Of a DNA stretch of 4,699 nucleotides, positions 3,001 to 4,699 are shown piece after piece. How positions within the stretch are numbered: position 1 is the first letter of the stretch; each line of letters starts with the position of its first letter. Position numbers: made by a program. The stretch is from a virus (Duplodnaviria; Heunggongvirae; Uroviricota; Caudoviricetes): IMG/VR virus record IMGVR_UViG_2531839103_000015; one strand, 5' to 3'.

Positions 3001-4699
3001 GCAGGCTACCGGAAATCAAAACAACTGACGGCGAGATGATAAATTAATTTGCTAATTACTTGTTTTTGCCATGCTTATCCTGAGCGATAAGTTCATCCAT
3101 AAGACTGTCTTTCTTCCCAGCAAACCTAATGTAGCACTCATTTCTATAGCGTTCCGGGATAACAAAACGGTCGATTTCAGGATATCCAGTAGCAGAAGGT
3201 ACCCGAATAAGAAGCCCTTTTTCGAGCAATGAGATTGCTTCAGGGCTTCCCTTTTCTGTCTTTAGCTGGTTATTAGCGGCTACAGCGAATGCCAAATACG
3301 CTCTTTCTCCAAGAGTTAACGAATCAAACAAATCTTGCACGTATTTCTCTTCTTTAGATTTGCGCTTCTGAGCAGCGAATATCTCAATTCTTTCAGTCAC
3401 AGCGTGATAAGCGGAATTAACAACGCCGTTAAGCACATAGCTAACGCAAAACAACAGGATGTAATACATCCAGTAATGAGGAAGGATTTCTGGATTATGC
3501 AGGTTTATCCATTCTTTTACGCTTACAGGCATAACAATAATCAATATAATCAGGATGATTAGCATATGAATCAACTGTTTAAGTGTCATTCCTTGCAGGA
3601 AAAAATGCATTAGTTCCTGCCACCATGAGTTGTTCATCGGCGTTTCTCTTTTGCTCTCTGTAGGGGTGAATAGAGTTTATCCGATTTCTCGCTGTAGGGG
3701 TACACGAGAACCACCGAGCCTGATGTGGTTAAAAGACAGGCATACTAATAAACACTGCACTGTGTATTCATTCCAACGAGTGAATACACTGAGCAATGTC
3801 GCTCGTAACTAAACAGGAGCCGACTTGTTCTGATTATTGGAAATCTTCTTTGCCCTCCAATGTGAGGGCGATTTTTTATCTGTGAGGATATGAACAGATG
3901 TCAAACATCAAAAAATACATCATTGATTACGACTGGAAAGCATCAATAGAAATTGAAATCGACCATGACGTAATGACAGAGGAAAAACTTCACCAGATTA
4001 ATAATTTCTGGTCAGACTCTGAATACCGACTCAATAAACACGGCTCTGTATTAAATGCTGTATTAATCATGCTGGCGCAACATGCTCTGCTTATAGCAAT
4101 TTCAAGCGACTTAAATGCATATGGTGTTGTGTGTGAGTTCGACTGGAATGATGGAAATGGTCAGGAAGGATGGCCTTCAATGGATGGTAGCGAAGGAATA
4201 AGAATTACCGATATCGATACATCAGGAATATTTGATTCAGATGATATGACTATCAAGGCCGCCTGAGTGCGGCTTTACCGCATACCAATAACGCTTCACT
4301 CGAGGCGTTTTTCGTTATGTATAAATAAGGAGCACACCATGCAATATGCCATTGCAGGGTGGCCTGTTGCTGGCTGCCCTTCCGAATCTTTACTTGAACG
4401 AATCACCCGTAAATTACGTGACGGATGGAAACGCCTTATCGACATACCTAATCAGCCAGGAGTCCCAAAGAATGGATCAAACACTTATGGCTATCCAGAC
4501 TAAATTCACTATCGCCACTTTTATTGGCGATGAAAAGATGTTTCGTGAAGCTGTCGACGCTTATAAAAAATGGATATTAATGCTGAAACGGAGATCAAGC
4601 AAAAGCATTCACTAACCCCATTTCCTGTTTTCCTAATCAGCCTGGCATTTCGCGGGCGATATTTTCACAGCCATTTTCAGGAGTTCAGCCATGAACGCT

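What the first reader, a model, noticed from the sequence alone, without database searches (positions are those of the whole stretch)
3040..3897. Convergent, AT-rich inner-membrane protein gene immediately downstream of N, with its own repeat-rich upstream region: candidate superinfection-exclusion or abortive-infection gene under antisense control by pL transcription
The 193-aa membrane protein gene is on the opposite strand to the pL operon. Its stop is only 16 bp from the N stop with no terminator between, so N-antiterminated pL transcripts must run antisense through the whole gene. That allows expression in the lysogen (pL repressed) and shut-off during lytic growth. Position and size resemble sieB of lambdoid phages, but I cannot confirm sequence identity, and my recollection of sieB orientation in lambda and P22 is uncertain. 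Compared with lambda, the N-to-ea10 interval is about 270 bp shorter here (858 bp versus about 1130 bp by my memory of lambda coordinates), consistent with absence of a ral-like gene.
Basis: partly seen in the sequence, partly recalled or inferred. Interest (0 to 1): 0.6.

Follow-up and report, generated by a model that had tools for sequence, protein, structure and literature searches.

The report
Known sieB superinfection-exclusion gene
This is sieB, a known gene of lambda- and P22-type prophages whose membrane protein makes the cell abort infection by rival phages; it sits in its usual place and orientation, so the finding is ordinary, although its conserved promoter and antisense-RNA cassette shows structure I could not find described.

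Summary
A 193-aa ORF lies at 3056..3637 on the minus strand, 16 bp from the N stop. It is AT-rich (39.9% GC) and has a hydrophobic N-terminus. The gene is sieB: Pfam SieB E=1e-25, PHROG 1301 E=6e-124, 100% DNA identity to the annotated sieB of phage VT1-Sakai, and about 85% protein identity to the experimentally studied P22 SieB. Convergence with N is the standard layout in lambda, P22 and every divergent homologue I examined. The P22 promoter, transcription start and internal Esc start (Met25) are all conserved here. So is the region matching the published P22 sas antisense RNA. The shorter N–ea10 interval comes from a clean ~336-bp loss of orf28 and ral. The documented antisense control is a short RNA that switches translation from SieB to Esc, not whole-gene interference from pL. 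One thing may be new. The upstream "repeats" belong to a ~110-nt portable cassette found in many phages in front of different cargo genes. It has two near-invariant ACCCCTACAG copies and a covarying pseudoknot-like element on the pL-direction strand.

The parts
3056..3637 (-). sieB coding sequence (193 aa, stop included). P22-type allele: N-terminal cytoplasmic helix, two predicted TM helices, a long stalk helix and a C-terminal winged-helix domain.
3056..3565 (-). esc: in-frame internal reading frame starting at Met25 (ATG 3565..3563). In P22 it encodes the truncated protein that inhibits SieB.
   Evidence: P22 records annotate esc starting 72 nt into sieB. The codon is identical in the window. 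Met25 is at least 90% conserved in 20 family members. SieB-Esc relation: PMC3224144, PMC12197685.
3674..3704 (-). PsieB promoter, placed by homology to the P22 annotation. The -10 is TAAACT at 3679..3674; there is no recognisable -35.
   Evidence: BK000583 annotates the sieB promoter at 29690..29720 and the RNA start at 29727. This stretch is identical between P22 and the window.
3667..3667 (-). Inferred sieB transcription start: the A of ACCCCTACAG, 30 nt upstream of the ATG.
   Evidence: Mapped from the P22 'sieB RNA start site' through alignment A1.
3658..3667 (.). Direct-repeat copy a. Reads ACCCCTACAG on the minus strand and CTGTAGGGGT on the plus strand. Covers +1..+10 of the sieB mRNA.
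   Evidence: the repeat finder family D2. Present in lambda and P22, in more than 120 viral contigs, and in protein-anchored divergent loci.
3692..3701 (.). Direct-repeat copy b, 34 nt from copy a. Overlaps the -35 position of PsieB and is flanked by the inverted repeat TTCTCG (3686-3691) / CGAGAA (3705-3710).
   Evidence: Flanking helix: 91% of cells paired; G.U 15 against A.C 2 on the + strand.
3709..3741 (+). Two interleaved helices on the pL-direction strand. S1 is AACCAC 3709-3714 / GTGGTT 3725-3730. S2 is GCCTG 3718-3722 / CAGGC 3737-3741. The loops are CGA, AT and A-rich AAAAGA. The topology is an H-type pseudoknot or two alternative hairpins.
   Evidence: Alignment A4 of 37 distinct sequences: 94.3% of cells paired against 23-37% when partners are slid; 5 of 11 pairs have changes on both sides; 0 of 500 shuffles reach the observed values. 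L3 is 71% A.
3633..3743 (+). Region homologous to the published P22 sas antisense RNA (P22A-sas). It overlaps the sieB mRNA only at 3633..3667 (5' UTR, Shine-Dalgarno and ATG) and does not reach the esc start.
   Evidence: P22A-sas sequence and coordinates from PMC13397905 Table 2. Local alignment to the window gives 108/111 identical.
3743..3747 (.). Junction of a ~336-bp deletion relative to lambda, HK140 and ev207 that removed orf28 and ral.
   Evidence: Alignment A2. Two-piece matches with ral between the pieces in hits H14-H25.
3748..3897 (+). Homologue of the lambda ral-ea10 intergenic region. Includes the inverted repeat 3752-3773/3778-3799 and a terminator-like hairpin 3850-3871 followed by a T-run.
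2767..3039 (+). N antiterminator gene, convergent with sieB.
   Evidence: Pfam N_peptide E=4.8e-17. VT1-Sakai annotation.
3898..4266 (+). ea10 (DUF2528), the next pL-operon gene. It can only be reached by transcription across sieB.
   Evidence: Pfam DUF2528 E=2e-47. Annotation.

Best explanation
The gene is the sieB orthologue (P22-type allele) of a lambdoid prophage of E. coli O157:H7.

Shown for the P22 gene and inferred here from ~85% protein identity and near-identical control DNA: in the lysogen sieB is transcribed from its own promoter PsieB (minus strand, start near 3667), independently of pL. Its product aborts the lytic cycle of superinfecting heteroimmune phages by stopping macromolecular synthesis midway. 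The same reading frame also yields Esc from Met25, a truncated protein lacking the first 24 residues that inhibits SieB. A short antisense RNA (sas) covering the sieB ribosome-binding site and start codon, but not the Esc start, switches translation from SieB to Esc. This lets the phage's own lytic growth escape self-exclusion.

Inferred from the model and hydropathy: SieB is an N-in/C-in inner-membrane protein. It has a cytoplasmic N-terminal helix that Esc lacks and so must be needed for exclusion. It also has two TM helices, a stalk, and a cytoplasmic winged-helix domain that is the variable part of the family and probably acts as the sensor.

Convergence with N is simply the conserved position of this gene slot.
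For: Identity: Pfam SieB E=1.1e-25 above the cut-off; PHROG 1301 E=6e-124; 100% DNA identity to annotated sieB of VT1-Sakai; 84.8% aa identity to P22 SieB; 118 homologues, all SieB family; RefSeq annotation in O157 genomes.

Layout: lambda, P22 and 8 divergent homologues all have sieB convergent with an N-like gene.

Control elements: the P22-annotated promoter, RNA start and esc start map onto identical or near-identical window sequence. Met25 is nearly invariant. The published P22A-sas RNA aligns at 108/111 to 3633-3743 (+).

Phenotype and regulation in P22 come from the literature: PMC10461980, PMC7380047, PMC12197685, PMC3224144.

Against: There are no functional data for this allele or this prophage. 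The prophage carries an IS1203/IS629 end beside cro, so its lytic programme may be defective.

No PADLOC model matches, so the gene is not in that defence catalogue.

The origin of the antisense RNA here is unresolved. No canonical promoter lies just upstream of 3633; there is only a weak extended -10-like TGcCACCAT at 3618-3626 (my reading). A stronger promoter-like site at 3522-3550 is degraded in P22.

Single-sequence folds of the sas-like region and of the sieB leader are not better than shuffles (z -1.1 and -0.7).
Confidence: 0.92

Rival explanations
1. Regulation works mainly through transcriptional interference or duplex RNA from N-antiterminated pL transcripts that cross the whole gene, shutting sieB off in lytic growth. 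A dedicated small RNA plays no special part.
For: ea10, cIII and kil lie downstream on the + strand, and the only promoter-like site between N and ea10 is inside sieB. pL transcription must therefore cross sieB. No intrinsic terminator separates N from sieB. I found no strong promoter at the 5' end of the sas-homologous region, so sas could be a processed piece of the pL transcript.
Against: The published P22 mechanism is a translational switch by a discrete ~105-nt RNA. The small-RNA reads in P22 form a discrete 127-nt species that overlaps only the sieB start. The module conserved across phages covers exactly this short region and not the gene body. Whole-gene interference would silence Esc as well, which contradicts Esc's protective role.
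Confidence: 0.25
2. The conserved upstream block (direct repeats ACCCCTACAG x2, palindrome TTCTCG-N13-CGAGAA, GC-rich inverted repeats) is a DNA operator or activator site for an unidentified protein that controls PsieB. It is not an RNA structure.
For: PsieB has no -35 element. One repeat sits exactly at the -35 position and the other at +1, the geometry expected for an activator or repressor. Both repeats stay near-invariant while the spacer and flanks change.
Against: The inner helices show 20 G.U pairs on the pL-direction strand against 3 A.C. Helices S1 and S2 show double compensatory changes. That pattern is expected for RNA pairing, not for a protein-binding palindrome. No candidate regulator was identified.
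Confidence: 0.3
3. The ORF is a decaying or non-functional remnant in a defective prophage, and its conservation reflects recent common descent only.
For: An IS element lies beside cro. ral has been lost. Many hits are 99-100% identical O157 prophages.
Against: The reading frame is intact and full-length relative to P22. Homologues down to 37% identity keep the same length, the same N-terminal 77 residues and the same cassette. That indicates purifying selection in the family.
Confidence: 0.05

Closest known systems
P22 sieB / esc / sas (Ranade & Poteete 1993; Susskind et al. 1974)
   Same: About 85% protein identity. Same length (193 against 192 aa). Same position convergent with the N analogue, gene 24. 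Promoter and RNA-start sequence identical. Same internal Met25 start. 108/111 identity over the sas region.
   Different: The host is E. coli O157:H7, not Salmonella. ral and the neighbouring small ORFs are absent. There are scattered substitutions, mostly in residues 85-100 and 140-190. The plus-strand promoter-like site inside the gene is closer to consensus here (CTTACA/TATAAT) than in P22 (CTTACC/TACGAT).
Lambda sieB
   Same: Same slot and orientation; in lambda the stop abuts the N stop. Same Pfam family. Nearly identical ~100-nt upstream cassette with both 10-mers and both helices.
   Different: Only 24% protein identity; lambda carries a different allele class (PHROG 6399 against 1301). 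Lambda keeps orf28 and ral.
Lambda RexAB and other prophage abortive-infection genes
   Same: Prophage-expressed membrane-associated function that aborts superinfecting phages.
   Different: No sequence relationship. RexAB sits in the cI operon and is a two-protein system. SieB is a single gene with an in-frame inhibitor.
Lambda holin/antiholin S105/S107 dual-start motif
   Same: Two products from one frame that differ at the N-terminus, one inhibiting the other; both are small inner-membrane proteins. PMC3224144 lists both pairs.
   Different: No homology. In SieB the longer form is the active one and the difference is 24 residues. Start choice is set by an antisense RNA.
IS10 RNA-OUT / RNA-IN (functional analogy only, from my own knowledge)
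   Same: A cis-antisense RNA whose hairpin loop may pair with the extreme 5' end of the target mRNA. Here the 10-mer CUGUAGGGGU is complementary to the first 10 nt of the sieB mRNA.
   Different: The loop presentation is only weakly supported here (not recovered by RNAalifold). The outcome is a switch of start codon, not simple repression.

Membership tests
SieB (Pfam PF14163 / PHROG 1301) | Significant match to the family profile above the curated cut-off | tested here: met
   90.4 bits against a cut-off of 26, E=1.1e-25, residues 24-164. PHROG 1301 E=6.4e-124 over the full length.
SieB (Pfam PF14163 / PHROG 1301) | Close similarity to an experimentally characterised member (P22 SieB) | tested here: met
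   84.8% identity over residues 1-191 by tblastn to P22 records. DNA alignment averages 88% identity and is near 100% over the first 230 nt.
SieB (Pfam PF14163 / PHROG 1301) | Hydrophobic N-terminal membrane segments | tested here: met
   Kyte-Doolittle 19-residue mean up to 3.0 at residues 22-40, and about 1.5 at residues 55-76. Model helices at 19-35 and 56-105.
SieB (Pfam PF14163 / PHROG 1301) | Genomic position: early-left region, opposite strand, convergent with the N-type antiterminator | tested here: met
   16-bp stop-to-stop gap. Same layout in lambda, P22 and 8 divergent loci.
SieB (Pfam PF14163 / PHROG 1301) | In-frame internal start giving Esc | tested here: met
   Met25 ATG at 3565..3563, aligned with the annotated P22 esc start. 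At least 90% conserved in the family. Translation from it was not tested.
SieB (Pfam PF14163 / PHROG 1301) | Own promoter active in the lysogen (PsieB) | tested here: inconclusive
   The sequence is identical to the P22-annotated promoter and RNA start. The consensus scan does not call it. Activity cannot be tested with these tools.
SieB (Pfam PF14163 / PHROG 1301) | Aborts lytic growth of superinfecting heteroimmune phages | not testable with these tools
   Phenotype is known for P22 and lambda only from the literature.
sas antisense RNA of P22 | Sequence homologous to the published sas transcript, antisense to the sieB translation start | tested here: met
   108/111 identity to P22A-sas across window 3633-3743 (+).
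sas antisense RNA of P22 | A promoter or processing site that generates the RNA | tested here: inconclusive
   No canonical promoter lies upstream of 3633. A promoter-like site at 3522-3550 (10/12 match) is 80 nt further upstream and is weaker in P22. The original paper is not held.
sas antisense RNA of P22 | Switches translation from SieB to Esc | not testable with these tools
   Literature only.
Any Rfam RNA family | Covariance-model match in 3040-3897 | tested here: not met
   The only hit in the window at E<=1 is Lambda_thermo at 4326-4384.
PADLOC defence-system proteins | Match to a catalogued defence protein model | tested here: not met
   No family at E<=0.01.

The most novel reading that the evidence does not exclude
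The "repeat-rich upstream region" is a portable ~110-nt regulatory cassette shared by many lambdoid phages.

On the sieB strand it is a promoter without a -35 element, bracketed by two near-invariant ACCCCTACAG copies at the -35 position and at +1.

On the pL-direction strand it encodes the body of the sas-type antisense RNA. That RNA carries two copies of CUGUAGGGGU, each complementary to the first 10 nt of the cargo mRNA, followed by a covarying H-type pseudoknot-like element (S1, S2, A-rich loop).

The cassette sits in front of interchangeable cargo genes in the slot next to N. These include several SieB allele classes and an unrelated HkaP-like ~164-aa zinc-ribbon protein family of unknown function. 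If so, the antisense switch is a general control device for a prophage defence-gene hot-spot and is not specific to P22 sieB.
Probability: 0.35. Interest if true: 0.5.

Novelty: already known. Interest (0 to 1): 0.18.

Why it matters
As flagged, the finding adds nothing new. sieB, its orientation opposite pL, its in-frame inhibitor Esc and its antisense RNA were described in 1993, and the gene is routinely annotated in O157 prophages.

It is still useful to record three things. This prophage carries the P22-type allele, not the lambda-type one. It has lost ral. The complete P22-style control module is intact, so the P22 model can be transferred directly.

The side observation could matter for two reasons. 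It points to an uncharacterised protein family (HkaP-like) as a candidate exclusion function. It also offers a compact natural antisense switch with testable structure.

Tried and rejected
Original papers. The two Ranade & Poteete papers could not be read by PubMed id, DOI or PMC id. The origin and exact ends of sas therefore rest on secondary sources.

Literature searches. A search for 'sieB' + 'sas RNA' found nothing. A search for lambda tL1 gave nothing usable, and the lambda records carry no tL1 feature. I could not test whether the conserved helices coincide with tL1. A search for O157 sRNA papers mentioning sieB gave nothing relevant.

RNA analyses. Rfam has no family in the region. Single-sequence folds of the sas-like region and of the sieB leader are not better than shuffles. 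RNAalifold on the 126-nt alignment gave only a weak, G.U-rich consensus and did not recover my helices. A hairpin around repeat copy a has no fixed register between variants, so I dropped it as a conserved helix. The hairpin around copy b has only weak covariation.

Other database searches. PADLOC has no match for SieB or for the alternative cargo. The genome-contig scan with the SieB alignment returned only 4 loci. The viral scan returned only close relatives. I therefore obtained divergent loci through the look-up of encoding contigs instead.

Motif readings rejected on reading the sequence. LexA box: there is no CTGT-N8-ACAG. CII-type TTGC repeats and the ops element: neither is present.

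Full report
**What is in the window.** The + strand runs in the pL direction of a lambdoid prophage. In order it carries:
- an IS3-family end (1 to about 292);
- a cro-like gene (minus strand);
- a cI-type repressor (645..1292);
- two small ORFs in the rexAB position;
- the oL/pL region;
- N (2767..3039);
- the flagged ORF (3056..3637, minus strand);
- ea10 (3898..4266), cIII and kil.

The whole window is 100% identical to chromosomal prophages of many E. coli O157:H7 genomes. Positions 3040-3897 are 100% identical to phage VT1-Sakai.

**Checking the observation.** Every factual element holds.
- The ORF is 193 aa, on the minus strand, and ends 16 bp from the N stop.
- No terminator-like hairpin lies between the two stops.
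- The gene is 39.9% GC against 50% for N.
- It has one strongly hydrophobic segment (about residues 22-40) and a weaker second one (about 55-76).
- The 260 bp upstream contain a 17-nt direct repeat with an exact 10-mer core, a 22-nt inverted repeat and a hairpin with a T-run.
- The lambda N–ea10 interval is 1132 bp against 858 bp here.

**Identity.** The protein matches Pfam SieB (E=1.1e-25) and PHROG 1301 (E=6e-124). VT1-Sakai and RefSeq both annotate it as sieB. It is 84.8% identical to the SieB of Salmonella phage P22, the member on which the genetics was done. It is only 24% identical to lambda SieB, so it is the P22-type allele. All 118 homologues recovered are SieB-family proteins of Enterobacterales and their phages.

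**Is the convergent layout special?** No. Lambda has sieB at 34482..35036 (+) abutting N at 35037..35438 (-). P22 has sieB/esc (+) 20 bp from gene 24 (-). Homologues at 37-58% identity, fetched by exact protein look-up, lie next to an N-like gene on the other strand wherever the contig reaches that far. Because ea10, cIII, kil and gam lie downstream on the + strand, pL transcription necessarily crosses sieB antisense. This is the normal lambdoid arrangement.

**Control elements.** The curated P22 record BK000583 annotates a sieB promoter, an RNA start site 31 nt before the ATG, and esc starting at codon 25. Alignment shows the window is identical to P22 across the promoter and start site. This places:
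- PsieB at 3704..3674;
- the -10 (TAAACT) at 3679..3674;
- the RNA start at 3667;
- the Esc start at ATG 3565..3563.

Met25 is nearly invariant in the family. A 2026 small-RNA study gives the sequence of the P22 sas transcript (127 nt, antisense to sieB; PMC13397905). That sequence aligns to window 3633-3743 (+) with 108/111 identities. It overlaps the sieB mRNA only from +1 through the start codon and stops well short of the Esc start. This fits the published mechanism, in which sas blocks SieB synthesis while Esc continues to be made (PMC12197685; PMC3224144).

The published phenotype is an abortive infection. Macromolecular synthesis stops midway through the lytic cycle of superinfecting P22-like phages, but not of P22 itself (PMC10461980; PMC7380047).

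**The missing ral.** Alignment with lambda, HK140, ev207 and P22 shows a clean ~336-bp gap between window 3743 and 3747. It removes orf28 and ral. On either side the window is 98-100% identical to lambda.

**Protein architecture (inference).** An AlphaFold model built on 20 family members has mean pLDDT 79.6, rising to 87-94 over residues 100-180. It shows:
- an N-terminal helix (4-16);
- TM1 (19-35);
- a short helix in the conserved KEWINLHNPEILP loop;
- TM2 continuing as a long stalk (56-105);
- a helix-strand-helix-strand-strand-helix domain.

**What the upstream "repeats" are.**
- *Conservation of the block.* About 100 nt upstream of sieB is almost identical in this prophage, P22 and lambda, even though the lambda protein is only 24% identical.
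The 24-nt spacer has 20 variants. Each keeps a TAnnnT -10 element at a fixed position.
- *Different cargo genes.* The gene downstream varies. There are P22-type, lambda-type and other SieB alleles. In 24 loci there is an unrelated ~164-aa protein with a C-terminal CxxC…CxxC motif (PHROG 1244, no Pfam or PADLOC match). That protein occupies the same slot convergent with N. It is annotated only as hypothetical, or as HkaP, in HK446, ev099, HK620 and HK629/630.
- *A test free of motif bias.* That search required both repeats, so I also examined loci found by protein alone. Among 10 evaluable divergent SieB loci, the first repeat is exact in 9. The second repeat is exact in 7 of the 11 loci in which it can be read and departs from exact (a single mismatch, a one-base insertion, or a doubly mismatched copy) in the rest. 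The flanks differ throughout.

**A structured element on the pL-direction strand.** Next to the repeats are two interleaved helices: S1 (AACCAC/GUGGUU) and S2 (GCCUG/CAGGC). The loops are 3 nt, 0-2 nt and about 6 nt, and the last is 71% A. Read in the pL direction this is the textbook H-type pseudoknot layout. On 37 distinct sequences:
- 94.3% of cells pair, against 23-37% when partners are slid;
- 5 of 11 pairs show changes on both sides (for example GCCUG/CAGGC to GCCGGG/CCCGGC or GCCUA/UAGGC, and CCAC/GUGG to CCUCA/UGAGG or CACG/CGUG);
- none of 500 shuffles reaches the observed values.

Non-Watson-Crick but allowed pairs favour the pL-direction strand: 20 G.U against 3 A.C in the helix cores and the flanking hairpin. 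The element lies upstream of the sieB start, so only plus-strand RNA can contain it. It falls inside the published P22 sas transcript.

A further hairpin (UUCUCG/CGAGAA) would display one CUGUAGGGGU copy in its loop. It is 91% paired but covaries only weakly, and RNAalifold does not recover it. I treat it as a hypothesis.

Both 10-mers in the antisense RNA are complementary to the first ten bases of the sieB mRNA. That would suit a loop-to-5'-end recognition step of the IS10 RNA-OUT/RNA-IN kind. This is inference only. A DNA-operator role for the repeats remains a live alternative, because PsieB has no -35 element and the repeats sit at -35 and +1.

**Verdict.** The flagged feature is real, and it is the known sieB gene in its canonical context. 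The idea of antisense control is right in spirit, but the documented mechanism is a short RNA that changes the translation start. What I could not settle is whether that RNA derives from pL or from its own promoter. I score the finding low for novelty. The cassette anatomy and the alternative cargo family are recorded as leads.

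Noticed in passing
window 3650-3745; loci L009-L128, L157-L159, L240-L247: The PsieB/sas cassette (two ACCCCTACAG copies 34 nt apart, a fixed -10, and a covarying pseudoknot-like element) is shared by more than 120 viral contigs. It precedes different cargo genes in the slot next to N.
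   Followed up: partly
loci L129-L155 (e.g. L129:1501-1992); phages HK446, ev099, HK620 (HkaP): An unrelated ~164-aa protein family occupies the sieB slot behind the same cassette, convergent with N. It has a C-terminal CxxC...CxxC motif, matches PHROG 1244 (unknown function) and has no Pfam or PADLOC match. Distant relatives occur in Pseudomonas Mu-like phages (D3112 orf25, DMS3, JBD30). It is a candidate alternative exclusion gene.
   Followed up: partly
window 1-~300: The 3' end of an IS3-family element (IS1203/IS629-type transposase C-terminus, ORF 45..251) lies directly beside the cro-like gene (318..536, minus strand). In VT1-Sakai that position holds nutR, tR1 and cII. Other O157 genomes match only from about 292-302 onward. 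The pR operon is probably disrupted in this strain.
   Followed up: partly
window 1415-1696 and 1703-2254 (+): Two ORFs (93 aa, and 183 aa with a hydrophobic C-terminus) follow cI on the same strand in the rexA/rexB position and end at a hairpin with a T-run (about 2262-2290). They match PHROGs 12039 and 12602 (unknown function) and have no Pfam or PADLOC hit. VT1-Sakai annotates only the second. They could be a repressor-operon exclusion pair.
   Followed up: no
window 3522-3550 (+): A promoter-like site, CTTACA-17-TATAAT (10 of 12), lies inside sieB on the antisense strand just before the Esc start. The P22 equivalent is weaker (CTTACC/TACGAT). It could drive a longer antisense transcript in this allele.
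   Followed up: partly
window 3457-3471 (-): A terminator-like hairpin, GGATGTA-T-TACATCC followed by TGTTGTTTTG, lies on the sieB sense strand inside the coding region (codons for the WMYYILLFC motif). It may be a by-product of the conserved peptide.
   Followed up: no
window 3752-3799 and 3850-3879 (+): A 22-nt-arm inverted repeat and a GC hairpin with a T-run are 98-99% identical to the lambda ral-ea10 intergenic region. The hairpin is probably one of the lambda tL2-cluster terminators (my recollection, not verified).
   Followed up: no
window 4326-4384 (+): The Rfam Lambda_thermo element (cIII thermoregulator) matches at 88.5 bits, overlapping the cIII start.
   Followed up: yes
lambda L002:1983-2010: In lambda the leader after the second 10-mer reads tttgATGAGTATAGAAATGG. 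By analogy with the other cassettes (GAGAG-type Shine-Dalgarno 8-12 nt before the ATG), the second ATG may be the true lambda SieB start, not the annotated one.
   Followed up: no
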